A DNA stretch of 64,000 nt from a virus, in IMG/VR virus record IMGVR_UViG_3300001199_000004; one strand, 5' to 3'. Both the position numbers and the translations under genes were made by a program. Within the stretch, counting starts at the first letter, position 1. The number at the start of each line of letters is the position of its first letter. Positions 2,970-57,985 of the stretch are shown piece by piece. A model generated the notes under the pieces. The model saw nothing but the letters and a program-made list of their open reading frames with translations, was not told where the DNA came from and searched no databases.

Positions 2970-3533
2970 TTAAAGTAATCCTGTTGGATCTAATAAGCAG
3001 TCTGGTTGTGGTTCATTTAAGGGCCACTCCACAAAATCCCTTGTAAAAGGCTTATAAAGCTCAATATGAAGCATGGAGCAGCTATGACCTGTAATATCGC
3101 GTCTTTCTTTACCTTGCGGTAAAACGGCCATTACGAGGCCCAGAACGTCTCCTTCTTGAATCATCTGGCCTAATTCTACTTTAGGAAGAATTTCGCCATA
3201 ATTAATGACACCAGATTTACCATCAATCATCACAGCAAAAGTTTCGTTCCACCAAAAATGACCTAATTTAGGACCAGTAAAAACATCTACTTTTACTACC
3301 AATCCAGATTCAATCGCATAAACTGGTTCATTTTCATTGGTGTACAAATCTACACCAGTATGAATGTCATATTTTCTGACTGCACCAAAACTCCCCGGAC
3401 TACCTTTAGAAGGAATTTGGTAGGTTTTAAGTGGTTTCATTAAGCAATTGACAATCAAACAAAAGCTTTTTTCTCGCATCAAACCATCGGTTAATCTTAA
3501 TGTTGCAATCTTCGTGATTATCCGAGATGCCAC
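2970..3533 (-). CDS. M23 family metallopeptidase
   Basis: HTGVDLY (HxxxD), VYAIESGLV, LHIEL (HxE variant of HxH). Confidence 0.8.
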   Translation of the reverse strand: MASRIITKIATLRLTDGLMREKSFCLIVNCLMKPLKTYQIPSKGSPGSFGAVRKYDIHTGVDLYTNENEPVYAIESGLVVKVDVFTGPKLGHFWWNETFAVMIDGKSGVINYGEILPKVELGQMIQEGDVLGLVMAVLPQGKERRDITGHSCSMLHIELYKPFTRDFVEWPLNEPQPDCLLDPTGLL

Positions 3534-7299: not shown

Positions 7300-7373
7300 A
7301 GACTCAAAGAAATAATCGCTAAGGGTGTTTTCTTTTTGATATGAAGTATCCCTTAACTGCAGCTTTTAAGTCT
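7300..7373 (-). ncRNA. Y-RNA-like structured RNA, copy 2 (downstream of Ro60)
   Basis: GCAGTTAAGGGATACTTCA...AAAACACCCTTAGCGATTATTTCT is a diverged copy of the element at 9314-9384. Inner stem TAAGGG/CCCTTA; outer stem AGACTTAAA/TTTGAGTCT. Confidence 0.62.
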
Positions 7374-9294
7374 GTGTATTTGGATTCGGATTTCCATCCG
7401 AAATTTTATCATCACTCTTGGCATATCGCTTACGCAAAATGGCAATGGTTGGAACTTCTGCAGGTGTTGCCGAAGCTTGTGATTCACTGTTAGCATCTTC
7501 AAAATCTTTGACAAGGCCAAAGATTTGTTCAGACCAACCACTTAACGTTTGAGTTTGCTTTTGTTTTGGCTTAACTTGTGCCTTACCATAACCTTGCAAA
7601 TCAACCGAGTGAACCCAAAGCTTGGAATTAACCTTTCTACGATATGTTTCCAACATACTTTCGATGGTAGCCTTGTCGCCACCCTTTCCAAAGTGTGCAT
7701 TCATATCATGTCCACAGTTATTTGCTCCACCAATGGTATAGCAACAGAAGTCAGAACAGATAATAATACGGTCAACCACAACTTTTCTTTCGGTCAAGTC
7801 GTGAATGCCACACCACAAACCAGTTTCCGTACCTCCACCAACACCACTACCCTTTTTGTAATGTGCAGTAATAGCCAATGCGTTGTGCTTAGATCGTTCG
7901 TCCTCTTTAGCAACCTTATCAATTTGCTTCTTAATAGCCATACAGCTATCCGATGCACTGAAAGGAACCCAAATTAACGAATCTCCAAACACACCAATCA
8001 TAGCCTTACGGCCCATTCTCTTAGCAATCACTGCTGCAAGGGTATTTCCGGTATCCGAAACACGCATGTTGGACTTACCGCTGATTGCAGCCCCTTGAGC
8101 AGAACCAGAGTTATCAACGAAGATAACAGTCGTTCCACTCAATTCTGGCACATTCATACAAGCATTGTCCAACATTTTGTCGTTAATGCTTTGTGAATTA
8201 GTGCTAGAAACTTCCTTGCTAGCAGTGAAGAAACGGAAAGGAAGTTGCTTTGTGTCTTTGATAGAAGTACACTTTTCGTATACCTTATCCCACGCAGCAT
8301 CACTAATTTTCGCTTCTTCAAAATTTCTCAAGTTTCTTGTAAGAGCCATTTCATTCATTTGTGGAATGATAAGCTCCCAAGAATCTTTAGTTCCGCCAAA
8401 TTGGGAAATAACGTTTTCCCAAGTTAGACCAGCCTTTTCAAGCATTTCATCATTGACTTCTTTAAGATTCTTCAAAGAGAAAAATTTCTTTCTCAATTTG
8501 AGCATATCTGGAGAATCATCATTGACAGTACCATTTACGAAATATTCGTAAACAGACTTGCTCAAAGGCCAACCTTTATCGGCATTGTTCTTAGTGTATT
8601 TCTTGACGCTATTCTTAGTGAAAGCACCACGAATCATCAACAAAACATCTTTGAAGTTTGGTCGTGCAGCACTATCGTACTTCAACAACCCATACAAAGA
8701 TTGGTTTGCAAATGCAATCGAAAGAAACTTTCTCAAGCTAGCTGGCAACGTACCCTTATTCATACCATCCTTCTTTTCACAGAAAAGATGACGGAAAGCA
8801 GCGAAAACACTAATGATTTCATCTGCTCTTTGAACAATGGAAGTTGCGTATTTTGGCAAATACTTCTTCGTCGAATCATTAGCTGCGGCGATGCAGGCCA
8901 TGATTTGCGGAGTATAACGTAATTTTAGACCAGTCTTGGTATCACGAGCCCAAGAAGCAATGACGAGCAAATCTTCTGGGTTAGAAGACTTTGTAACAGC
9001 TTGTGCCGTCTCAATTACTTCTCTAGCTTGTGCCGAAAGACCAATTTCATCCGTAATTACAGAAGAAATCTTGCCAGTCGTAGCCAATTCCTTGAAAAAT
9101 GCACCATAGCTACGATTTTCATCGTAATACTTTGGCTCATTAAAGAATCCACCACCAATCATAGCAATAAGCTTATCGACAGCATTATCAAATTCAAATG
9201 CACGACCTGGAACATGTGGATGTTCAACAGTTTCTGCATGAATCTTTTCGTGAATCTTACCCTTTGGCTTCGTAACCCCTAATTTTTTAGACAT
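7366..9294 (-). CDS. Ro60/TROVE-vWA ribonucleoprotein (Rsr-like)
   Basis: LTWENVISQ, MALTRNLRN, KQLPFRFFTA, vWA MIDAS FVDNSGS. Start placed at 9294 (MSKKLG) behind SD AAGGAGG rather than at 9399. Confidence 0.92.
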   Translation of the reverse strand: MSKKLGVTKPKGKIHEKIHAETVEHPHVPGRAFEFDNAVDKLIAMIGGGFFNEPKYYDENRSYGAFFKELATTGKISSVITDEIGLSAQAREVIETAQAVTKSSNPEDLLVIASWARDTKTGLKLRYTPQIMACIAAANDSTKKYLPKYATSIVQRADEIISVFAAFRHLFCEKKDGMNKGTLPASLRKFLSIAFANQSLYGLLKYDSAARPNFKDVLLMIRGAFTKNSVKKYTKNNADKGWPLSKSVYEYFVNGTVNDDSPDMLKLRKKFFSLKNLKEVNDEMLEKAGLTWENVISQFGGTKDSWELIIPQMNEMALTRNLRNFEEAKISDAAWDKVYEKCTSIKDTKQLPFRFFTASKEVSSTNSQSINDKMLDNACMNVPELSGTTVIFVDNSGSAQGAAISGKSNMRVSDTGNTLAAVIAKRMGRKAMIGVFGDSLIWVPFSASDSCMAIKKQIDKVAKEDERSKHNALAITAHYKKGSGVGGGTETGLWCGIHDLTERKVVVDRIIICSDFCCYTIGGANNCGHDMNAHFGKGGDKATIESMLETYRRKVNSKLWVHSVDLQGYGKAQVKPKQKQTQTLSGWSEQIFGLVKDFEDANSESQASATPAEVPTIAILRKRYAKSDDKISDGNPNPNTQT

Positions 9295-9313
9295 TTTTAT
9301 GCCCTCCTTAAAT

Positions 9314-9384
9314 GATATCACCGAGAAATAAACGATAAGAGAGTTTTTTTCATTAACAGTGAAGTATCTCTTACCTGCAACATC
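9314..9384 (-). ncRNA. Y-RNA-like structured RNA, copy 1 (5' leader of Ro60)
   Basis: Outer stem GATGTT/GATATC, inner stem TAAGAG/CTCTTA, apical hairpin TTCA-CTGTTAA-TGAA. Lies between the promoter and the SD. Confidence 0.65.
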
Positions 9385-9397
9385 AGTGACAAGATTC

Positions 9398-9425
9398 ATT
9401 ATAGTCAGGTTCGCATCTATTTCAA
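9398..9425 (-). promoter_or_regulatory. Sigma70-type promoter for the Y-like RNA/Ro60 unit
   Basis: TTGAAA-N16-TATAAT on the minus strand. Confidence 0.55.
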
Positions 9426-17156: not shown

Positions 17157-18392
17157 TTAAGCAACCATGTCTTGGGCAAGATGCGTTTCAATAAACTTTT
17201 TGTCAACCTCATAGGAACCAACCTTTTCTGAGGCTTCGTACATTAAATCAAGCATAAAACTTTCTACAACACTTCGCAACCCTCTAGCTCCCACTTTCTT
17301 GTCAAAAGAAACTGAGGCAATATATTCCACAGCTTCATCCGTAAATGATAACGTAGAACCATCCATTTTGAACAACTTTTGATATTGCTTCAACAAAGCA
17401 TCTTTAGGCTCTGTCAAAACCTGAACCAATGCTTTTTTATCCAACTCTTTCAATGAAGTAATTGCTGGCAATCTACCAACTAATTCAGGGATTAGACCAA
17501 ATTCAACCAAGTCCTCACTGGTAAGCTTGGCCATCAAATCTTGATTCTTGGCTTCTTTGGAGCCAAAACCCATATACTTACCTTGACCCATTCGTTTTTC
17601 AATAATTTTATCCAACCCAACAAATGTCCCGCCACAGATGAATAGAATGTTTGTAGTGTCAATTTCAATGCATTGTTGCTCTGGATGCTTTCTACCACCT
17701 TGGGGCGGCACATTGCACTTAGTACCCTCTATAAGCTTCAATAGAGATTGTTGGACCCCTTCACCAGAAACGTCCCGTGTAATAGAAACGTTTTGACTTG
17801 TTTTACCAATTTTATCAATTTCATCAATATAAATAATCCCTCTTTCTGCAGAAGGAATATTCATATCGGTATTTCTAAGTAATTTTAAAACTAGATTTTC
17901 AACATCTTCTCCAACATATCCAGCTTCTGTCAGGGTTGTCGCGTCCCCAATAGCAAATGGAACATGCAACAGTTTGGCTAAAGTTTGTGCCAGTAAGGTT
18001 TTACCGCTACCAGTTGGACCAACCAAAAGAATGTTGGATTTTGAAATTTTAACATCTGAAAGATTACCCAAATCCATAGGTTTGCGTTCAGAAATAATCC
18101 GTTTGTAGTGATTGTAAACCGCTACGGACAATCTCTTTTTAGCATGCTCTTGACCGATAATATATTCGTCAAGATGCTTCACAATCTCTTTGGGAGAAGG
18201 GATCTTCGTTGATTTTTTTGGAGATTTGGGATCATCTTGTGGTGATTCTGTCATTGTAGTACGACAAATCTCAATACAAGACGCACAAATACTAGAAGGG
18301 ATTCTTCTAGGTTTAAGAATTGGCCCTTTTACAAGTGGTCCAACCTTACTAGATGGTTCACCACAAAAACTACAAACTGTCTTTTCTTCCAT
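17157..18392 (-). CDS. clpX: ATP-dependent Clp protease ATP-binding subunit ClpX
   Basis: CSFCG zinc-binding domain, [51 protein letters not shown]. Confidence 0.97.
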
Positions 18393-39546: not shown

Positions 39547-40298
39547 TTATCTCAACAAGTCAAACTGACCTTTCATTACTTTCTTGATTTGGTTGGTAGT
39601 GATGTTTGTCCTATGGTCTATTACTTCACTTCTGATGAAATTATAGGTTCTAACTTTGCCACCACGACCACAGTCGCCAAGTTGGTCTTTTCTTTTTGAA
39701 TTATATTCTGAATTTTGTTTATTCAGATAATATTCATTTACTCTTTGAGTGACGATTTCCAATGCTTTTCGTTTGCTATTGCCTTGATCTCTTTCATCAA
39801 CTACTGCTTGGATACCAGTAGTTCGTTCAACCACACGGCAGCAACTATCGACTTTATTTTTATTAGATCCTCCAGGGCCTGTACCCCTCATAAACGTAAT
39901 GATCAAATCTTTTGGATTTAATTCAATAAGCTTATTTTGTTGTTTAACTGGTAGAACAGCAACAGAAACTACGGAAGTGTGATACTTCCCTAGAGACGTT
40001 CGCTGAACGATATGCTTTCCTACCTCATTTTGGAAAGCCTGAAGAACTTTGTTGCCACTCATTTTGGCAGCAATTCTTCCAGCATCAGATTCTAAAACTT
40101 GACATTTTAGATTTAAAGAAGAAGCATATTTTTGGTAAGCAGCAAATAAATCATGCACGAATAATTTACTATCATCGCCGCCTTCACCAAATTTAACTTC
40201 TAAAAGAAGCTCTTTTGTATCAGAGCTAAAGACAGTGAGTCAATCCTTGTGTGATATTGGGTTCATGGCTAAAGCAACCTCCGATTAAACTTACTCAT
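39547..40298 (-). CDS. Class-I peptide-chain release factor homologue (RF1-like, no domain 1), predicted to be made by two +1 frameshifts (about 249 aa)
   Basis: LLEVKFGEGGDDSKLF, EVGKHIVQR..GKYHTS, GPGGS, RTYNF...DHR. The RF frame is closed by TGA at 40240-40242. SD AGGAG plus ATG at 40298 lie in another frame. Confidence 0.85.
40225..40231 (-). promoter_or_regulatory. Second +1 frameshift site, CTT-TAG-C
   Basis: CTT TAG is in frame with the +1 product of site 1, and a +1 shift here enters the RF frame. Confidence 0.65.
40268..40283 (-). promoter_or_regulatory. First +1 frameshift cassette, GGAGG-TTG-CTT-TAG-C
   Basis: Same layout as prfB (internal SD, 3-nt spacer, CTT, stop, C) but with UAG. 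Confidence 0.8.
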
Positions 40299-41482
40299 AA
40301 CATTCTCCTAAATTAAAAATCAAACGGCTCATCAATACTACGATACTTTTTAACATTAGCACCATCTATAGATATAGGATAGTATACACATTTTGTTTTA
40401 CAAAGTAAACCCAAATTTACTAATTGTTCTGTAGAATAATACTTATATCTTGCCTTTGAATGCATTTCCAAATAAGTATTCTCACTAATATAATCAAGCA
40501 TTATTTGCTCACGGTTTCTACCACAGAAAGTTTATCCTGATTTGGGTAATAACACAGGATATAAACTCTTCAAAAGAGCTTTCTCAAACCATGTTCCTTC
40601 TTCCATAGATTTTTGCTCTTTTGGAGTAAGAGGAACTTTTTTGGGAATTTCTTTGTTTGAACAATGATAGCACCAAACGTTCATTACCAAATAGACCTTA
40701 AATTACTAAAAAGGATATTAACCGAAGGGGCGTCGGAAGGAGATTTTTGATTCCCAAGGATTTCTAACTTTGCTTTCTTTTTCCAAAAATGTCCAAAAAC
40801 TGAAAGAATTTGATACATTTTGCCTTCAGGCATTTTATCAGGTTCAAATACAACGTAATGATAGGAAGGTAAATTTCCCCAACCATAAACAAATTTACGA
40901 GTTTCCGATGTATACAACTTGCCTTCATCTGCATACATGATTTCAGTACGTTGAATTGGACCTGGATCGAATTTCAACAAATTCATCGCAGCTACAGCAT
41001 TAGCCAAATCTTTACAAGCAACGTAATAAACCATCGTGTCTTCCATTATTCACCCCACGGTTCATCAATGTCTCTATACTTAGAAGACTTTTTCTTTTCA
41101 GTTTCTAAAGGCACTGGGTTTGCAATAACTGGTTTTGGCTTTGGTTTGGGACTTTTGCCGCCATCTTTGGAATAGCCCGTCATAGCATCTGTCGCCATTT
41201 TACTATACATACAAATTCCTTATTTAGCAGACTTTATCCAAATGGTACTGTTGCCAGTTTGTTGCTGTTCTAGTCCAGCTTCAATAGCTTGTTGAAATGT
41301 AGTTAGATTATAATAGGTTAAACAACAAGCAACACAAATTGCAACCGCAGCAACACAAGTTACAATAACACAAATCATTTTTTGTTCTCCATTCATGCTT
41401 TTGTCTTCTTTAAAAGATGGAATGCCTTGTGTAATGTTTTGCCTCGGCTTTTTCCCAACAATACTATTATCAAGTTCGCCCA

Positions 41483-41965
41483 TTACAAACCTTCAATTCT
41501 AGTTCTAGTTATATTCTCAATCTTCCCAATGAATTCATCAGTGCAAGATTGAATTGTTTTTTCTTGTTTTTTTAGTTCGTCCTCAGCCAAACCTTGACGA
41601 ACTTTCTTGCGAATATTTCTAATAGAAACCTTCGATTCTTCTTCAAATTTCTTGATTTGCTTAACAACCTTGGCTTTTTCTTCCAAGCAAATAGGTGCAG
41701 CACTTACCACAACCATATGCTTGCCACTGCTGTAAGCAGAGAACCCAGAACGTTTAATGGCCTCTACCACCTTACCAGAAACTTGGTTATCGGACAAGAG
41801 AATACTAATGCCATTCTTGATGGGATTAGAGAACCCAAGAGTACCAATTGGTGTCATATTTCCATAATATTCCACCTTAATCATGTCAATTAAGGCTGGA
41901 CTGACCGTAGTAGAGTGAATCTTACTAATCTGATCTTCAAACAATATAAAACTTTTTTGCATCAA
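41483..41965 (-). CDS. frr: Ribosome recycling factor
   Basis: SPALIDMIKVEYYG..TPI, EESKVSIRNIR, IQSCTDEFI. Confidence 0.85.
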   Translation of the reverse strand: MMQKSFILFEDQISKIHSTTVSPALIDMIKVEYYGNMTPIGTLGFSNPIKNGISILLSDNQVSGKVVEAIKRSGFSAYSSGKHMVVVSAAPICLEEKAKVVKQIKKFEEESKVSIRNIRKKVRQGLAEDELKKQEKTIQSCTDEFIGKIENITRTRIEGL

Positions 41966-44905: not shown

Positions 44906-45826
44906 TCATAATTTTCCTGCTGCTGCAGCAGCTTTAAGTTTGTTGTCAAGATCTATCAAATAATCCCGTCCATATGTTTTATTTTCCAAACCAGAATAAA
45001 GGTTTTCTGGTAAGTCATTGACAAATTCTTTACAATTCGATGCGATAGACAAAGCAATGCAAGCTACCGTATCTGTGTCTCCACTATAAGAAACACTTTC
45101 TTTAAGAATACCAGATAATGTTTTATTGTTGAATATAGCGGTTCTTGCCGCTCGAACACAGGGAATAGCTAGAGCATCCACTTTAGAACCGTCCCAAGGC
45201 TCCAAAATTGGCGTTGTAATCAATCCAACATCATTATATTGCTTATGTCCCAAACTTAATTCGGAAAGCCATTCGTCTACGTTTTTTAATGGCCCACAGT
45301 CATAAATAAAATAATGAGACATTAAAGCTACAACTAAAGAAGATTCTACTCCTTCAACAGAATCATGGGTTACAGAAGCTTGAACATATGCCATTTCAAT
45401 TACTTCTTTCAATATTTTAATATACCCAATAGGAGCAGCACGCATAGCAGCCCCTGACCTGTTGCTTTTACCACCTATTTTAGAAAGCAATTCTTTCCCA
45501 TTTTCTGAATTTAAGAGTAAATTCAGAAAAGCGGTTGTGTACCCTCTTCTTTGGTCCCGCTTGAAACATTCAACGAATTTATTGGCGAATGATAATTTAC
45601 TCCTGATGTTTAATAATTTGCTTCCGGGGCCGCTTAGTAATGTTTCGGCAACCCCAATCATCATTTGGGTATCATCAGTGTAGTTGCCAGGAGGGATTAG
45701 TCCTGGTTGGTATTCTTTATATTCTAAGAAATTTGGTTTATCTAAATGTGGGGCAATTTCTTCTTGTTCAAGTCCCCATTCAAATAATCCACCAAATGCG
45801 TCTCCTATCGCGGCCTCTACTAACAT
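44906..45826 (-). CDS. ADP-ribosylglycohydrolase (DraG/ARH family)
   Basis: AIGDAFG, YTDDTQM, SGAAMRAAP, VTH, GDTDTVA. Confidence 0.93.
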   Translation of the reverse strand: MLVEAAIGDAFGGLFEWGLEQEEIAPHLDKPNFLEYKEYQPGLIPPGNYTDDTQMMIGVAETLLSGPGSKLLNIRSKLSFANKFVECFKRDQRRGYTTAFLNLLLNSENGKELLSKIGGKSNRSGAAMRAAPIGYIKILKEVIEMAYVQASVTHDSVEGVESSLVVALMSHYFIYDCGPLKNVDEWLSELSLGHKQYNDVGLITTPILEPWDGSKVDALAIPCVRAARTAIFNNKTLSGILKESVSYSGDTDTVACIALSIASNCKEFVNDLPENLYSGLENKTYGRDYLIDLDNKLKAAAAAGKL

Positions 45827-47603
45827 GTGTGTTCCTAAATTAGATTTTCAAATTCAATACAAACAGATTTGCCTTGACTAATTAAAATTGCCTGATTGAT
45901 GGGCATGTTTGACTTTTTGTAAATATAAAAATTACTTTTAATTGTAGGGCAAACACCAACATAATCCATATTGCCAATAGAAGAAATAACTACTGCATGC
46001 TTTAATATTGTTGTTGTTTCAAATATTGAGGAAACATTTGGACTGGTTATTAAATCTACATGGAGTGAATTGGCTAAATCCTTTTAAACAACCACATATA
46101 AAAATCTAACTAAATCATCAAATCTTTCTTCAAGCGTATTTCCAATTACTAAACTAAAATCCCATTTACGTGTTTCCATCTTTTTTATCCTTTTCAGATT
46201 CTCTTTCAAACTCGCGACCCATTGCCACTAAACCAAGCCAACAAAAAACCATGCCCATTGCCACTAAACCAATACTTATAACCCAAGCTATCATTTGTTT
46301 TCTTCCTCAAATTTTGCGTCAAATGCGTCAAATTCTCTTCGTTCTTGTCTAATGGTTAAACATACATTATGCAACAAAGCACTTAGATCAAGCCAACAAG
46401 CACCCATAGTAACTTTTTCATTCCAAGATTTAAATCTTGGTAAATCAGAAAGAACTTCCCAACAAAGCTTATTTATATCGCACAATGAAAACATTCCAAA
46501 ACCATAATCATCAAATTTAGAACGAATGCAAGCTGTTAAAAAAGATACTGCTTCTTCTAACCCAGGAGCGTGAGCGGGTGGAGTATCTTTTTCATAGCCT
46601 GCAAATTGTTTGATTAGCCAATAAGCCAACGCTCCCGTTATGTCACGATAACTTGTTAATCTTTTTGTGTTCCATTCAATATTATCAGAAAGACGTTCAT
46701 ATGTCTCTGGTGTGTTGGCAATTGCAGCATTTAATTCATTAATGCAAGCTTCATTCAAAAATCCATCTTCAGTGAATAATGTGTTTTCAAGAAAAGGAAT
46801 TTCAATTTTCGTATATTGTCTGTCTGATTTGTTTTCCATATTTATGAAGAAAATTGTTTATTTTTAAGAAATTCAAATAAAAAACAACTATTATTGTTTG
46901 CAGTTCTTGCATAACTCAAACAATCTATTTCAAATTTTTTAATTTCATTTTTTCTAAAATTGTATTTAATTATTGGATGCTCTAAATCAATTTTACTATC
47001 ATCTAATGTATTAAAAACCTTGCCAATTTCCAATAAATTATCTAATTTAGTCAATCTTAATTCCCACAAATTTTCCTCTAAAATAAACCCATTTGATTTA
47101 ACATAAACTAGCTCTGGAATGTATTGCGAATTACATTCGTGAGGCAATTTGTAATACATTTCCAATTTAAGTTGAAAATTAACATTAGAGTTTTTTAGAA
47201 ACAAAACTTCAACATCAACATTTGTTCCTTCTGGTTTAATAAGACGATCACCAAAATACAAATCAATGTCAATAAATTTACCTAAAGGTTTTAATTTATA
47301 ATAACTATTTCTCATTTTGTTCATCTTTTGGTTTTGAAATTAAATCAGGCAAAACATTCCCTGGGCATTTTAAATTATGAAAATCGTCAATATCTCCGGT
47401 GCCATTATTCATGGCACGATCTTTGCTTCGTTGTATTATTTCTTCTTTTTGAACTTTTTCAATTTCAATTTCTTCAATTGTAACTTCATTGATTATTTTC
47501 TCATCTTTACATAAAATTTCTTCTTCATTGATTTTTTTATCATTATCCATTGGCATTTTTCCTTTGTTTCTATATTTTATTAAAACAAATTATCTAAATC
47601 AAT

Positions 47604-47641
47604 AAAAAAACCACCAATTATAAAAATAATTGGTGGTTTTT
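47604..47641 (-). terminator. Terminator directly 3' of tmRNA
   Basis: AAAAACCACCAATTAT-aaaa-ATAATTGGTGGTTTTT. Confidence 0.88.
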
Positions 47642-47642
47642 A

Positions 47643-47996
47643 TGGAGATGGCGAGTATCGAACTCGCGTATCTGTACAGCTAAATTAATTGCTTTCTACG
47701 ATGTTTATCTTTATTGTTCATCTTAATTATAAAAACCACATAAAAGCTAAGGTTTTTACAAAGCGACGACTTATTTTTTAATTTCTCTTTAATCGCACAA
47801 AGAGAAACGATTCAAATTTTATGACAAGTTTTCGGACGCCTTTGAAATTAGCTTCCTGAACCAGTCGCAGGTTATTAAGCTGCGAGTGCGAAAGTTTCGC
47901 CGTTTAAGGCTTTTAATCGAATTTTAACGTGGCCACTCGATTAACCACGACATGCAACAATTAACTCACTCTGCCAGTCGATTCCAATTCATCCCC
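47643..47996 (-). ncRNA. ssrA: tmRNA (354 nt); predicted tag (A)GETFALAA
   Basis: 5' GGGGATG pairs with 3' CATCTCC-A including G3:U70; T-loop GTTCGAT; tag ORF GGC GAA ACT TTC GCA CTC GCA GCT TAA TAA at 47901-47872; CCA not encoded. Confidence 0.95.
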
Positions 47997-48774: not shown

Positions 48775-49221
48775 TTACAACAGTTTTAAATGTCCAGTAA
48801 TTTCATCTATGTCAGCACTTAAATTAGGCCCAATGGCACAACAAGTATTTGTTGGAACCCCATGAAACTCCGTCAATCCGCTATCGCAGATCAAATGAGC
48901 TTCTAAACCTTTTTCTTTTGCCTTGTTATAAATATTAAGCAATTCCTGCTCTGATTCAACTCTCACACAAATTTTCTTGAAATTTCCGTATATCCAGGCT
49001 TCTTGTTCTGGAGATAAAAGTTCATTTTGAATAAGATTACGCATCAATTGTGAACGTGAGCCACTAGATGATTTTGCAATGTTTTGAATAAAATGACTCA
49101 TCCAAGCTCCAGAAGCGTGTGCCCCTTGAGCTATTTTTTTTCCCAATCGCATGTTCAAATCGTGACGAATAACTATGGTTTGTTTAACGTTAATTTTTTC
49201 TGGTGTGTCTTGGTTTTCCAT
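48775..49221 (-). CDS. pth2: Peptidyl-tRNA hydrolase type 2
   Basis: KQTIVIRHDLNMRLGKKIAQGAHA, KKICVRV, DSGLTEF..PT.TCCAIGP. Confidence 0.95.
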   Translation of the reverse strand: MENQDTPEKINVKQTIVIRHDLNMRLGKKIAQGAHASGAWMSHFIQNIAKSSSGSRSQLMRNLIQNELLSPEQEAWIYGNFKKICVRVESEQELLNIYNKAKEKGLEAHLICDSGLTEFHGVPTNTCCAIGPNLSADIDEITGHLKLL

Positions 49222-50604: not shown

Positions 50605-52002
50605 TCAATGAAACTCCGTTCCACCCTTGCGAGCTAAATAATCAGCAGAAACAGACTTTACAATTCTCCTACCATTCAAAACACGGCAATAAGGAACTTC
50701 TACCGTTGGAGTACATACAATTCCTTCCCGACCACTAAACTTACCTGCAGCCTTAACATCACACATAGTCGTTGGGCCAGAGGTATGTAATTCCAAAATT
50801 TCCTTACTAAATGGTCCTCGATACAAAATCGGAACCATTTCAACGCCAAATTTTTCAAACAAATCCTTCTTCACATCATAAGACAAATACTTGTTGTTTA
50901 CAGCGATGTCAAATGCTCTAAAAGATTTCCCAGAAAACCCGTATGCCATATCTTGAATTCCCAAGCCTACAAGCTCCCCGAATACAATAACGCTATATTT
51001 AGGTTCTTCTGGTTCATATTCATTACGAATATAAATCAATAGTTCCTTAACATTATCAGTAAGTGGAAGCCAAAATTCAGAACGAACCAAAACAGGCTCA
51101 AAACAGTTTTCATTGTCTTTAACTTCAAAACACTGACACTTATCAACTACAGATTCATCATATCTTACAATCACACCCTCTTCAACTACAGGAGTTTTAA
51201 TGGGTTGTTCAAAAACATAATCAACTTGCCAAATTCGACCATTTTCATTGAAAATTGTCCCTGCAATTGGCGGTTCAGACAAAATACCATTTGCAATCAA
51301 CTCTTCAATACGATATCGAGTTTCAACCTTAGACCATTCTTTACGACGCACATCATGAGATCCAGCAGTGAAAACCCAATCTTTTTGGCCGTCTTCAAGA
51401 TCGTCAAGAATAAGACCAACTCTAGTGTTCTTACCATGAAGTTTTTCGGTATAAACAACTTCCGTTCCATCCTCAATGGCATTTGGATAATTAGCAAAGT
51501 TTTCAAGTTCCGTATAACGATGGAAAAACGTACTTGGTTTTTCTGCTTGCCCATCATTAGTAGGAGGCGGCGGATCATATTTGGTTACACCAAAATGTTC
51601 TGCAACATCTTGTCCGACTTCCCAATTGGGGTCATCGCCCCAAGTTGGGTCAATCTTCATAATCACACCATAGGAAACTTGTCCTCTTAAACGACAAGCA
51701 ACCACTCTTCCACCCTCGGGACGAATACCAAATTCATCCTTAGGAAGATGATGCAAATACTTCAAATTTCCCAATCTACCCTTGGGAGTATCATTAGGAC
51801 CATTACACAAAGCCAACGGCAAAATAGCATCAGGAGGAAAAAAGATGCATTTTTCGCCTTCTTGAAACTGAGCTACTTTGGAAATTGGGTCAAAAGTGAT
51901 ACAAACTTGCCAACCCTTAATGTGGGCTACGGCAAGCTTATCCGCATTTTCATGAGGTTCTACTTTGTCAACAGTACAAACTTCTACGATTAATTTGCTC
52001 AT
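50605..52002 (-). CDS. RNA ligase, DRB0094/Rnl5 family, with an internal insertion
   Basis: HENADKL, LRGQVSYG, YTEKLHG, FGEL.G.GIQ, FDI, REGIV, KSVSADYL. Confidence 0.9.
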   Translation of the reverse strand: MSKLIVEVCTVDKVEPHENADKLAVAHIKGWQVCITFDPISKVAQFQEGEKCIFFPPDAILPLALCNGPNDTPKGRLGNLKYLHHLPKDEFGIRPEGGRVVACRLRGQVSYGVIMKIDPTWGDDPNWEVGQDVAEHFGVTKYDPPPPTNDGQAEKPSTFFHRYTELENFANYPNAIEDGTEVVYTEKLHGKNTRVGLILDDLEDGQKDWVFTAGSHDVRRKEWSKVETRYRIEELIANGILSEPPIAGTIFNENGRIWQVDYVFEQPIKTPVVEEGVIVRYDESVVDKCQCFEVKDNENCFEPVLVRSEFWLPLTDNVKELLIYIRNEYEPEEPKYSVIVFGELVGLGIQDMAYGFSGKSFRAFDIAVNNKYLSYDVKKDLFEKFGVEMVPILYRGPFSKEILELHTSGPTTMCDVKAAGKFSGREGIVCTPTVEVPYCRVLNGRRIVKSVSADYLARKGGTEFH

Positions 52003-56791: not shown

Positions 56792-57985
56792 GTGTATATG
56801 AAGCACATACGAACCATTAAAATTCAACTTAAAGTTAACCCAAATGCATTCAAACCAACAATTGAAGCATATACTAATGCTTTTAATTATGTTTGCAAAA
56901 CAGGCTGGGACAACCAAGAATTTAACGGAGTTAAATTACATCATACTACATATCATCAGGCAAAACAAGACACAAATCTTAAATCCCAATTAGTGATTTC
57001 AGCTAGAACCAGGGCCACAGAAGCTCTTCTTTCAGTAAATGCTAGAAAAAAGAAAGGCAAAAAAGTTTCATGTCCTCGAAGTAAATGCTGTTCAATCAGA
57101 TATGATGACCGTACTTTATCCATTAATTTTACGAATAGAACTATCAGTATATTAACCATAATGGGTCGAATAAAAAATTTACCATTTTTTGTACCAAAAC
57201 ATTTTGAGCAATATCTTAGCTGGAAACGTTGTTCTGGGGATTTGTTTCAAGTTAAAGGCAAAACTTATTTGCATATTGTTTTTTCTAAAGAAGTAAATGA
57301 TATTGTCGATAATGGTAAATATGTCGGCATTGACAGAGGGATCAAAAAGATTGCAGTAGTAAGTGATAAAAGGTTTTTTGGTGGTGGAAGAATTAAACAT
57401 GTGAGTGAACGATATGAACGTTTACGTGGTTCTTTACAAAGTAAAGGAACACGTAGTTCTAAAAGACACTTGAGAAAAATTTCTCATAGCGAACGGTTAT
57501 TTAGAAAAAATGTAAATCATTGTATTACGAAAAAAATTGTTTCTAGTTTAGAACCAGGAACAACAATTGTGTTAGAAAAATTGACTGGCATTCGTGGTGG
57601 AGCAAGGAAATTAACTGCAGAACAAAAGGCCGCAGGACAAAAAACTTTGCGTAAACAACAACGAAAAGAAGTTAATAAATGGAATTTTTTTCAATTTGAA
57701 CAATTTTTGACATATAAAGCAGCAGGACATGGCTGTAATGTTGTTTATGTGGACGCACGTTATACGTCTCAAAGATGTAGCAAGTGTGGACATATTGCTA
57801 AAAACAATCGTCAAAACCAAAGTCAATTTAAGTGTAAAAAATGTTCATTTCAATTAAATGCAGACTTAAATGGAAGTCGTAATATCGTACTCAAATATTT
57901 GGACGCTACAGGCTATCCAGATAAGGTAAATGTCAATTTACCTAACGACAGTTGCAAAACTGTTAATGTTCCTTTAAGTAATTAA
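56792..57985 (+). mobile_element. tnpB: TnpB RNA-guided endonuclease (IS200/IS605 type), solo, no tnpA
   Basis: RuvC-I GIDRG, RuvC-II IVLEKL, zinc finger CSKCG..CKKC, RuvC-III NADLNGSRNI; all catalytic residues intact. Confidence 0.93.

What the first reader, a model, noticed from the sequence alone, without database searches (positions are those of the whole stretch)
39547..40224. Release-factor homologue with GGS instead of GGQ and no codon-recognition tripeptide
The DNA reads GGC CCT GGA GGA TCT AAT (GPGGSN) where class-I RFs carry the universal catalytic GGQ. The recognition loop is VQR-TSL-GKYHTS, versus RF1 VQR-VPATESQ-GRIHTS, so PxT/SPF is deleted. Domain 1 is absent, while the RF1-like C-terminus (RTYNF..DHR) is kept. 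Inference: it is either a codon-independent rescue factor, or a catalytically impaired mimic that occupies the A site and inhibits termination. The second case would turn the frameshift sensor into positive feedback.
Basis: partly seen in the sequence, partly recalled or inferred. Interest (0 to 1): 0.82.

Follow-up and report, generated by a model that had tools for sequence, protein, structure and literature searches.

The report
Phage release-factor homologue with GGS
A huge groundwater phage carries a shortened copy of bacterial release factor 1 that has lost both the loop that reads stop codons and the catalytic glutamine, yet is still kept by selection, so it is probably a repurposed ribosome A-site factor and not a dead gene.

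Summary
The minus-strand gene (body 40227-39550) encodes RF1 domains 2-4 only. It reads GPGGS where relatives read GGQ. A 4-residue deletion has removed the PxT tripeptide (VQRT----SLGKYHTS).

- **Family:** it belongs to a large family of domain-1-less RF1 homologues on phage contigs of up to 533 kb. These genes are reached through one or two prfB-like +1 frameshift sites; here there are two CTT TAG C sites.
- **GGS is unique:** of 165 short family members, only this genome has GGS. Its four closest relatives keep PPT and GGQ.
- **Not simple decay:** the window's branch has omega about 0.08, and omega = 1 is rejected at p = 5.5e-12. Changes at conserved sites fall only in the two functional centres.
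- **The deletion recurs:** the same 4-residue deletion, with a similar rebuilt loop, occurs in six other family clusters that keep GGQ. Monophyly of the seven is rejected (AU p = 0.00015).

Best reading (0.45): a working, repurposed, stop-codon-independent A-site factor with weakened or altered hydrolysis. It would be made only when UAG termination is slow, in a phage that also encodes RRF, tmRNA and Pth2. Rivals are a recent loss-of-function allele (0.25) and a termination inhibitor with positive feedback (0.15). Nothing here measures activity.

The parts
40305..40309 (-). Shine-Dalgarno AGGAG, 6 nt upstream of the leader ATG
   Evidence: Sequence read. The same AGGAG-ATG arrangement is seen in L005, L006 and L008.
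40269..40298 (-). Leader ORF (frame A): MSKFNRRLL followed by TAG
   Evidence: Homologous 9-11 codon leaders ending in L-stop occur in 8 distinct loci.
40278..40282 (-). Internal SD-like GGAGG, 3 nt upstream of the first CTT (prfB-like stimulator)
   Evidence: Relatives have GGGGG, GGAGG or AGGTG at the same 3-nt spacing.
40268..40274 (-). Putative +1 frameshift site 1: CTT TAG C
   Evidence: The site is conserved in all 8 loci; L001 has CTT TAA C.
40229..40270 (-). Frame B segment, 14 codons (SHEPNITQGLTHCL)
   Evidence: Frame B is open between the two sites in all 8 loci. Site spacing is 40, 43, 46 or 52 nt, always 1 mod 3.
40240..40242 (-). TGA in the body frame (frame C), between the two sites. 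It blocks any simple ATG-to-stop reading of the gene.
   Evidence: Every relative has a frame-C stop between the sites, but of differing type and position (TGA, TAG). The 'W' of P0003 at this place is a TGA called under code 4.
40225..40231 (-). Putative +1 frameshift site 2: CTT TAG C, entering the RF frame
   Evidence: A CTT-T(AG/GA/AA) site entering the RF frame is present in 21 of 28 IMG/VR relatives.
39547..40227 (-). RF1-like body (226 aa, domains 2, 3 and 4) plus the TAA stop
   Evidence: Pfam PCRF and RF-1 domains. PDB RF1 matches at E = 2e-38. AlphaFold2 mean pLDDT 94.9. Foldseek TMq 0.93 to ribosome-bound RF1.
39973..40008 (-). Remodelled codon-recognition loop VQRTSLGKYHTS. The 4-residue deletion junction lies between T (39999-39997) and S (39996-39994). 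R-to-K change at 39987-39985.
39865..39873 (-). GGA GGA TCT = GGS in place of GGQ
39820..39828 (-). E-R-T where the family has H-x-P (the H147E and P149T changes), in the strand after the GGQ loop
   Evidence: Both columns are at least 93% conserved among 119 relatives.
41483..41965 (-). Context: ribosome recycling factor homologue
   Evidence: Pfam RRF, 87 bits. It is syntenic with the RF gene in L002, L003 and L011.
47640..47996 (-). Context: tmRNA
   Evidence: Rfam RF00023, 109.5 bits.
48775..49221 (-). Context: peptidyl-tRNA hydrolase Pth2
   Evidence: Pfam PTH2, 105 bits.

Best explanation
The gene is a working but repurposed member of a phage family of domain-1-less RF1 homologues.

**Expression (inferred from sequence).** Ribosomes start on a 9-codon leader and must shift +1 at two successive CTT TAG C sites to reach the RF frame. 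The first site has a prfB-style internal SD 3 nt upstream. Product is therefore made roughly in proportion to the square of the chance that UAG is not terminated, i.e. when RF1-type activity is limiting.

**Protein (shown).** The protein keeps the RF1 domain 2/4 and domain 3 fold. It has lost the four residues that carry PxT and has Ser for the GGQ glutamine, plus two further changes at conserved positions (H147E, P149T) in domain 3.

**Function (inferred).** It no longer reads the first two bases of a stop codon, so it enters the ribosomal A site without stop-codon specificity. Its peptidyl-tRNA hydrolysis is weakened or altered, not necessarily abolished. It would act on stalled or slowly terminating ribosomes alongside the phage's own RRF, tmRNA and Pth2.
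For: **Fold and homology.** PDB RF1 matches at E = 2e-38. The AlphaFold2 model has mean pLDDT 94.9 and superposes on ribosome-bound, open RF1 at TMq 0.93.

**Selection.**
- A codon branch model (6 taxa, 225 codons) gives omega 0.080 on the window branch against 0.045 in the background. The likelihood-ratio test against omega = 1 is 47.5, p = 5.5e-12.
- NG86 three-point estimates give dN 0.11-0.13 and dS 0.83-0.99 for the window branch.
- Only 4 of 44 highly conserved columns are changed: R94K, Q134S, H147E and P149T. All four lie in the recognition loop or the GGQ domain; the other 40 are intact.
- Of the 24 lineage-specific substitutions, 7 fall in the 12-residue loop, together with the deletion.

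**Recurrence of the deletion.**
- The identical 4-residue deletion, with a similar rebuilt loop (x-S-x-x-K/R-x-HTS), occurs in six other clusters: P0009, P0011, P0123, P0127, P0128 and P0151. All keep GGQ.
- P0128 is seen on 10 contigs.
- Monophyly of the seven is rejected (delta lnL 231.5, AU p = 0.00015).
- The window and L008 loops match at 7 of 9 residues but differ at synonymous sites in most codons. This points to convergence, not recent DNA transfer.

**Expression apparatus.** The leader, both frameshift sites and the internal SD are intact here and conserved in 8 loci. The frameshift leader is also kept in three of the other deletion variants.

**Context.** RRF, tmRNA, Pth2 and an RNA ligase lie within 12 kb.

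**Literature.**
- The Gln main-chain amide and the two Gly are the critical elements. The side chain packs or selects water, and Q240E keeps reasonable activity (PMC4691834).
- A GGS-mutant RF1 has been crystallised in the A site of the 70S ribosome (PDB 9mtr; entry title only).
Against: - **GGS is a singleton.** Only this genome among 165 short and 102 full-length relatives carries it. There is no independent lineage in which to see it conserved.
- **The closest relatives are canonical.** The four nearest keep PPT and GGQ.
- **The omega is a branch average.** It would still be about 0.08-0.13 if the gene had become neutral over the last 4-9% of the branch (my calculation). dS is close to saturation.
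- **GGQ is normally essential.** Every GGQ mutation is lethal in E. coli RF1/RF2 in vivo (Mora 2003, as cited in PMC9589212).
- **No direct data.** No activity, binding or expression data exist. The host is unknown.
Confidence: 0.45

Rival explanations
1. Recent loss-of-function allele. An ordinary phage RF1-like gene lost its two functional motifs in this one lineage and is at the start of decay. It is still open only because too little time has passed.
For: - GGS is found in no other relative.
- The sister and three further close relatives are canonical.
- dN on the window branch is about 3 times that of the sister at similar dS, and the protein-tree terminal branch is 4-30 times longer.
- Three conserved domain-3 residues (Q, H, P) are changed together.
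- The branch-average omega allows a neutral phase of up to about 4-9% of the branch.
Against: - Omega = 1 is rejected at p = 5.5e-12.
- There is no stop or frameshift in the 226 body codons of a 33% GC gene.
- 40 of 44 conserved columns are intact.
- The excess changes are not scattered. They sit at the two functional centres and partly converge on the states of other deletion variants.
- The leader, the SD and both shift sites are intact.
- The same deletion is maintained with GGQ in six other clusters, one of them seen on 10 contigs.
- The Ser codon is three base changes away from Gln, so the change is not very recent.
Confidence: 0.25
2. Termination inhibitor with positive feedback. The protein occupies the A site at stop codons, or generally, without releasing the peptide. 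It competes with host RF1, and so raises frameshifting at its own two UAG sites.
For: - The RF fold, the decoding-side residues Q (of VQR) and H-T-S, and the C-terminal domain are kept.
- The catalytic Gln is lost.
- Expression depends on two UAG sites.
- TAG is the rarest stop among long ORFs of the window: 7 of 86. The phage itself would therefore suffer least from UAG-specific interference.
Against: - Without PxT there is no known basis for preferring stop codons, so competition with RF1 specifically at UAG is not expected.
- GGS is not shown to be inactive (PMC4691834).
- The six other deletion variants keep GGQ, which does not fit an inhibitor role for the deletion itself.
- A general termination block would also hit the phage's own genes, which end in TAA or TGA in 79 of the 86 long ORFs.
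Confidence: 0.15
3. Still an ordinary UAA/UAG release factor. The shortened loop and Ser are tolerated substitutions, and the gene is autoregulated through UAG as prfB is through UGA.
For: - The third-base pocket residues (Q of VQR, T of HTS) and the stacking His are kept.
- The UAG-based leader is kept here and in two other deletion variants (L043 and L044).
- Two family members have GGM with an intact PPT, so the glutamine is not absolutely fixed in this phage family.
Against: - PxT is the element that specifies RF1's reading of the stop codon. This is established knowledge; all 102 full-length RF1 relatives surveyed keep a loop of at least 14 residues, and 101 of them the full 16.
- All GGQ substitutions tested in vivo in E. 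coli RF1/RF2 were lethal (cited in PMC9589212).
Confidence: 0.08
4. Sequencing or assembly artefact.
For: Only one sequencing run holds the stretch.
Against: - Three base differences in one codon, a clean in-frame 12-nt deletion and 7 neighbouring substitutions cannot arise from base-calling error.
- Two assemblers give identical sequence over 5,232 nt.
Confidence: 0.01

Closest known systems
Bacterial RF1 (prfA)
   Same: Domains 2, 3 and 4 are homologous: 36% identity to E. coli RF1 over 224 residues at E = 2e-38. The predicted fold superposes on ribosome-bound RF1 at TMq 0.93. The motifs VQR, HTS, RTYNF and DHR are kept.
   Different: There is no domain 1, no PxT (4-residue deletion) and GGS in place of GGQ. 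The protein scores far below the equivalog cut-off (188 against 400 bits). The gene is reached by +1 frameshifting, which is reported as absent from bacterial prfA (PMC12421855).
prfB (RF2) autoregulatory +1 frameshift
   Same: The cassette is the same: an SD-like element, 3 nt, CTT, an in-frame stop, then C. A short upstream frame leads into the RF frame.
   Different: The stop is TAG, which was not detected in prfB motifs across 12,753 genomes (PMC12421855). There are two sites in tandem, and the second has no SD at 3 nt. The leader is only 9 codons. In this copy the product probably cannot read the sensed codon, so the loop would sense host RF1 and not the product itself.
PrfH (RF-H), partner of RtcB2
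   Same: It lacks domain 1, is about 200 aa long, and its codon-recognition loop has been converted to another use, namely recognition of the damaged decoding centre (bioRxiv 10.1101/2021.09.22.461353).
   Different: PrfH keeps GGQ and is closer to RF2. The window protein scores 53.5 bits against the 166.65-bit cut-off for TIGR03072, is RF1-like and keeps a full domain 4. No RtcB was found among the 30 window ORFs scanned.
Plant PrfB3
   Same: It is a bacterial-type class-I RF paralogue that has lost both the codon-recognition tripeptide and GGQ, yet is maintained for a different function (PMC5897788).
   Different: PrfB3 derives from RF2, is a chloroplast RNA-stabilising protein that binds the petB 3' UTR, and has no frameshift control. 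There is no sign that the phage protein binds mRNA ends.
Dom34/Pelota (paralogue of aeRF1)
   Same: It is a release-factor paralogue lacking both the catalytic Gln and stop-codon recognition. It enters the A site of stalled ribosomes (PMC6514570).
   Different: It belongs to an unrelated fold family (the archaeo-eukaryotic RF superfamily) and works with a GTPase and ABCE1. The resemblance is an analogy only.
Mimivirus/Megavirus class-I RF gene
   Same: It is a virus-encoded release factor whose translation needs two recoding events at internal stop codons, read as bacterial-style autoregulation (PMC3521657).
   Different: It is an eRF1-type protein in a eukaryotic virus. It uses one frameshift plus one readthrough, not two +1 shifts, and the protein keeps its motifs.

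Membership tests
Class-I release factor RF1 (prfA; TIGR00019 / NF001859) | Scores above the NCBIfam equivalog cut-off | tested here: not met
   187.8 bits against a cut-off of 400, and 174.5 against 423.25.
Class-I release factor RF1 (prfA; TIGR00019 / NF001859) | N-terminal domain 1 | tested here: not met
   Matches begin at profile position 96 of 194 (PCRF) and 101-109 of 347-361 (prfA). Only about 23 leader residues precede the body.
Class-I release factor RF1 (prfA; TIGR00019 / NF001859) | PxT tripeptide in the recognition loop | tested here: not met
   A 4-residue deletion removes it.
Class-I release factor RF1 (prfA; TIGR00019 / NF001859) | GGQ motif | tested here: not met
   The motif reads GGS, with a TCT codon.
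Class-I release factor RF1 (prfA; TIGR00019 / NF001859) | Domain 2/4 and domain 3 fold | tested here: met
   Mean pLDDT 94.9. TMq 0.90-0.93 to ribosome-bound RF1 chains.
Class-I release factor RF1 (prfA; TIGR00019 / NF001859) | Stop-codon-dependent peptidyl-tRNA hydrolysis | not testable with these tools
   This needs a reconstituted release assay.
Phage domain-1-less RF1-like family (unnamed) | Nests within the clade of 200-260 aa phage or metagenome homologues | tested here: met
   The window protein is sister to P0003, inside a 5-row clade with 99-100% SH-aLRT support. Relatives lie on viral contigs of 26-533 kb.
Phage domain-1-less RF1-like family (unnamed) | Short leader plus CTT-stop +1 frameshift site(s) entering the RF frame | tested here: met
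   Two sites are present here. They are conserved in 8 loci, and a site is present in 21 of 28 IMG/VR loci.
Phage domain-1-less RF1-like family (unnamed) | PPT-type loop and GGQ (the state in most members) | tested here: not met
   161 of 165 short members have GGQ, and 147 of 165 have a full-length loop. The window has neither.
PrfH (TIGR03072) | Scores above the equivalog cut-off | tested here: not met
   53.5 bits against 166.65.
PrfH (TIGR03072) | Adjacent RtcB ligase gene | tested here: not met
   No RtcB was found among the 30 window ORFs scanned with Pfam, including all neighbours within 4 kb. An unrelated RNA ligase (PF09414) lies 10 kb away.
ArfB (NF006718) | GGQ domain plus a basic C-terminal tail, with no domain 2/4; scores above the cut-off | tested here: not met
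   19.2 bits against 100. Domain 2/4 is present.
prfB-type programmed +1 frameshift | CUU + in-frame stop + C, with an SD-like element 3 nt upstream, and the zero frame closed while the +1 frame is open | tested here: met
   Site 1 is GGAGG-TTG-CTT TAG C. Site 2 is CTT TAG C without a close SD. The frames are as required in all 8 loci.
prfB-type programmed +1 frameshift | Frameshifting actually occurs and responds to RF level | not testable with these tools

The most novel reading that the evidence does not exclude
This is a bacterial-type counterpart of Dom34/Pelota that arose in a phage. It would be an RF1 paralogue that has given up both stop-codon reading and the catalytic glutamine, made only when two UAG-sensing frameshift gates open. 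It would bind stalled or slowly terminating ribosomes regardless of codon and hand them to the phage's own RRF, Pth2 and tmRNA, or block host RF1, instead of hydrolysing the peptide itself. More broadly, the recurrent PxT deletions would mark a previously unrecognised class of codon-independent phage release or rescue factors.
Probability: 0.2. Interest if true: 0.85.

Novelty: new variant of a known kind. Interest (0 to 1): 0.6.

Why it matters
Class-I release factors are defined by GGQ and by a codon-reading tripeptide. Paralogues that lose these (Dom34, PrfB3, and PrfH for the loop) have each turned out to do something new at the ribosome or on RNA.

- **The loop is under repeated selection.** This phage family shows the codon-reading loop being deleted repeatedly and rebuilt in the same way. 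That points to a selected alternative function, plausibly rescue of ribosomes stalled during infection.
- **This copy goes one step further.** It has also lost the glutamine while staying under purifying selection.
- **The expression control is unusual.** The gene sits behind a TAG-based, doubled version of the prfB frameshift switch. That switch has not been reported for any RF1-type gene, and TAG has not been reported for any prfB (PMC12421855).
- **It is testable.** If the protein is active, it gives a natural test of what the GGQ glutamine is for. It would also be a new kind of phage tool for taking over the end of translation.

Tried and rejected
- **TGA = Trp (code 4) reading of the in-frame TGA at 40242-40240: rejected.**
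  - TGA ends 27 of 86 long ORFs in the window.
  - ARAGORN finds no tRNA in the window.
  - The stop in that frame differs in type and position among relatives: TGA in most, TAG in L001.
  - The 'W' of P0003 is itself a TGA called under code 4.
- **Simple start downstream of the TGA: rejected.** No ATG, GTG or TTG precedes the conserved LLEVKFGEGG strand. The first (GTG at 40158) would delete invariant residues.
- **Recent DNA transfer of the deleted loop between lineages: rejected.** The window and L008 loops differ at synonymous positions in most codons.
- **Second RF copy in the window:** none found by tblastn.
- **Whole genome:** none is held, so other RF genes or suppressor tRNAs elsewhere on the 167-kb contig could not be checked.
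- **Sequencing runs:** one DNA holder only, probably the source sample. No RNA holder is listed.
- **Papers not held:** Shaw & Green 2007, Santos 2013 and Aleksandrova 2025, which carry the rate data for Gln substitutions and describe the GGS-mutant RF1 structure. What I say on GGS activity rests on secondary citations and on a PDB entry title.
- **Literature searches:** no paper was found describing frameshifting in phage RF genes or domain-1-less phage RFs.
Full report
**What is there**

On the minus strand, the stretch 40227-39550 encodes 226 residues that match RF1 domains 2, 3 and 4.
- Pfam finds the PCRF domain (profile positions 96-194 only) and the RF-1 domain.
- NCBIfam prfA scores 175-188 bits, far below the 400-423 bit cut-offs, and the match starts at profile position about 101-109.
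- E. coli RF1 in the PDB aligns at E = 2e-38.

- VQRVPATESQGRIHTS in RF1 corresponds to VQRT----SLGKYHTS here.
- GAGGQ in RF1 corresponds to GPGGS here. The codons are GGA GGA TCT.

Domain 1 is absent. The upstream 62-aa ORF has no Pfam match. An AlphaFold2 model built on 107 family sequences has mean pLDDT 94.9. It superposes on ribosome-bound, open RF1 at TMq 0.90-0.93.

**How the gene is reached**

No ordinary start codon can give this protein. The body frame carries a TGA at 40242-40240. No ATG, GTG or TTG lies between that TGA and the conserved first strand.

The sequence upstream reads as follows.
- An AGGAG ribosome-binding site is followed by a 9-codon leader (ATG at 40298).
- The leader ends GGAGG TTG CTT TAG C.
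- The +1 frame is then open for 14 codons and ends again in CTT TAG C.
- A second +1 shift enters the RF frame.

Eight distinct loci share this layout: the window, five relatives at 59-79% identity, one at 50%, and the 595-kb phage LR756511 at 45%.
- The two sites are 40, 43, 46 or 52 nt apart, always 1 mod 3.
- The middle frame is always open, and the RF frame is always closed by a stop between the sites.
- LR756511 uses CTT TAA C and CTT TGA C instead.

Among 28 further relatives on IMG/VR viral contigs, 21 have a CTT-T(AG/GA/AA) site entering the RF frame. Some have one site and some have two.

I rejected a TGA = Trp reading. TGA ends 27 of 86 long ORFs in the window. The 'W' in relative P0003 is simply a TGA called under code 4.

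This is the prfB cassette applied to an RF1-type gene, with TAG as the sensed codon. A 2025 survey of 12,753 genomes found no programmed frameshift in prfA and no TAG in prfB motifs (PMC12421855). A virus-encoded release factor that needs two recoding events is known from Mimivirus, but that is an eRF1-type gene (PMC3521657). Frameshifting itself is inferred from sequence, not shown.

**Where the protein sits among its relatives**

The searches returned 267 sequences: 165 short, domain-1-less proteins and 102 full-length RF1s.

| Feature | Short family (165) | Full-length RF1 (102) |
|---|---|---|
| GGQ | 161 | 102 |
| GGS | 2 (both are this genome's own protein) | 0 |
| GGM | 2 | 0 |
| Exact 4-residue loop deletion | 8 rows = 7 distinct proteins | 0 |

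The window protein is sister to P0003, inside a well-supported five-member clade (99-100% SH-aLRT). All the other members read VQRIPPTE..RRQTS and GPGGQ.

**Is it decaying?**

Several results argue against simple decay.
1. A codon branch model on six taxa gives omega 0.080 for the window's terminal branch and 0.045 elsewhere. The difference is not significant (p = 0.098). Omega = 1 on the window branch is rejected with LRT 47.5, p = 5.5e-12.
2. NG86 three-point estimates agree. The window branch has dN 0.11-0.13 and dS 0.83-0.99. The sister has dN 0.03-0.05 and dS 0.76-0.93.
3. Of 44 columns that are at least 93% conserved in the family, the window changes four: R94K, Q134S, H147E and P149T. 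All four lie in the recognition loop or the GGQ domain. The other 40 are intact.
4. The lineage has 28 private amino-acid changes, against 2-9 in its three closest relatives. Seven substitutions plus the deletion fall within the 12-residue loop. Several converge on the states seen in other deletion variants.
5. The leader, the internal SD and both shift sites are intact.
6. TCT is three base changes from CAA or CAG, so the change is not a fresh single hit. Two assemblies agree exactly.

There are limits. dS is near saturation. Omega is a branch average, so a neutral phase covering the last 4-9% of the branch would not be detected. This is my calculation.

**The deletion is recurrent**

The same 4-residue deletion is found in P0009, P0011, P0123, P0127, P0128 and P0151.
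- All six keep GGQ.
- All have a loop of the form x-S-x-x-(K/R)-x-HTS.
- P0011 is sister to a protein with an intact SPTE loop (100% support).
- Constraining the seven deletion variants into one clade costs 231.5 log-likelihood units (AU p = 0.00015).
- Parsimony gives seven changes on the trees. At least three are well supported. Within the window's nine-member clade, one ancestral loss with a regain is equally parsimonious.
- The window loop (TSLGKYHTS) and the P0011 loop (NSLGKHHTS) share 7 of 9 residues but differ at synonymous sites in most codons. This indicates convergence at the protein level, not recent transfer.
- P0128 occurs on 10 contigs, some of 50-200 kb.
- Three of these variants keep a single CTT TAG or CTT TGA leader.

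The shortened loop therefore looks like a selected alternative state of these phage factors. The window copy has that state and has, in addition and uniquely, lost the glutamine.

**What it probably does**

PxT is the element that reads the first two stop-codon bases in RF1 (established knowledge). The residues that form the third-base pocket and the stacking His (Q of VQR, H-T of HTS) are kept. A factor with this loop should enter the A site without normal stop-codon specificity.

On catalysis, the papers held here say three things.
- The two glycines and the Gln main-chain amide are critical. Q-to-P abolishes activity.
- The side chain packs the site and selects water, and Q240E keeps reasonable activity (PMC4691834).
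- Every GGQ substitution is lethal in vivo in E. coli (cited in PMC9589212).

A GGS-mutant RF1 has been crystallised in the 70S A site (PDB 9mtr; entry title only). GGS therefore means 'altered or weakened', not demonstrably 'dead'. The accompanying H147E and P149T changes suggest that domain 3 is under different constraints in this lineage.

The gene lies in a huge-phage-like region from a groundwater metagenome. The region carries the following genes.
- RRF (41483-41965)
- tmRNA (47640-47996; Rfam 109.5 bits)
- Pth2 (48775-49221)
- An RNA ligase
- ClpX
- A Ro60/TROVE protein

My best reading (0.45) is a working, codon-independent A-site factor with reduced or altered hydrolysis. It would be produced only when UAG termination is slow, and would act with this toolkit on stalled or slowly terminating ribosomes.

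The main rivals are these.
- A recent loss-of-function allele (0.25).
- An ordinary UAG/UAA release factor with tolerated substitutions (0.08).
- An artefact (0.01).

**Comparison with known systems**

- The protein is not a member of RF1 by NCBIfam score, domain 1, PxT or GGQ.
- It is not PrfH: 53.5 bits against a 166.65-bit cut-off, and no RtcB was found.
- It is not ArfB: 19 bits against 100.
- In what it has lost, it resembles PrfH (no domain 1, loop converted to another use; bioRxiv 10.1101/2021.09.22.461353).
- It also resembles plant PrfB3 (lost SPF and GGQ, now an RNA-stabilising factor; PMC5897788).
- By analogy it resembles Dom34/Pelota (PMC6514570).

**Verdict**

The GGS state is a singleton, so its meaning is uncertain. 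The deleted loop belongs to a recurrent, apparently selected variant class within a phage RF family that I could not find described in the literature held here. I rate it a new variant of a known kind, with interest 0.6.

I tested it here and it holds as a conserved sequence feature.

Noticed in passing
window 47640-47996 (-): A tmRNA gene is found by Rfam (RF00023, 109.5 bits, full-length model). ARAGORN reported no tmRNA or tRNA anywhere in the window.
   Followed up: partly
window 48775-49221 (-), 50605-52002 (-), 41483-41965 (-): Pth2, an RNA ligase (PF09414 plus an OB domain) and RRF cluster with the RF gene and the tmRNA. RF, RRF and Pth2 are also neighbours in related contigs L002, L009, L011 and L044.
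   Followed up: partly
family-wide (P0029, P0033, P0040, P0073, P0069, P0074, P0109, P0112, P0134 and others): Even without deletions, the recognition loop of these phage RFs is unusually varied. In place of PPTE one finds PEND, PDND, PDTD, PKNGKG, PSNGKG, PCNE and GTTE. This hints at altered codon specificities.
   Followed up: no
P0096, P0247: Two other family members read GGM instead of GGQ while keeping an intact PPT loop.
   Followed up: no
window 40266-40240 (-) and the same place in L002, L005, L006, L008, L009, L011: Immediately after frameshift site 1 there is a conserved ATG in the RF frame. It opens a 6-9 codon mini-ORF that ends at the conserved TTGA(A/C)T stop. Whether it is translated, or is a by-product of the conserved S-N-E / G-L-N peptide in the middle frame, is open.
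   Followed up: no
L001 (LR756511.1) 3029-3081; IMG/VR loci L013-L039: The stop codon used in the frameshift sites varies across the family (TAG, TGA, TAA), and so does the number of sites (one or two). Several PPT-type (RF1-like) factors sit behind TGA, which RF1 does not read. In those cases the switch would sense host RF2, not the product.
   Followed up: partly
window, whole: TAG is the rarest stop at the ends of long ORFs: 7 of 86, against 52 TAA and 27 TGA. Coding is strongly biased to the minus strand.
   Followed up: no
window 7366-9399 (-), 17157-18392 (-), 46291-46839 (-), 56792-57985 (+), 44906-45826 (-): Other Pfam matches in the window are a Ro60/TROVE protein, ClpX, a Tad5-like (Thoeris inhibitor) domain protein, a TnpB/Cas12f-like protein and an ADP-ribosylglycohydrolase.
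   Followed up: no
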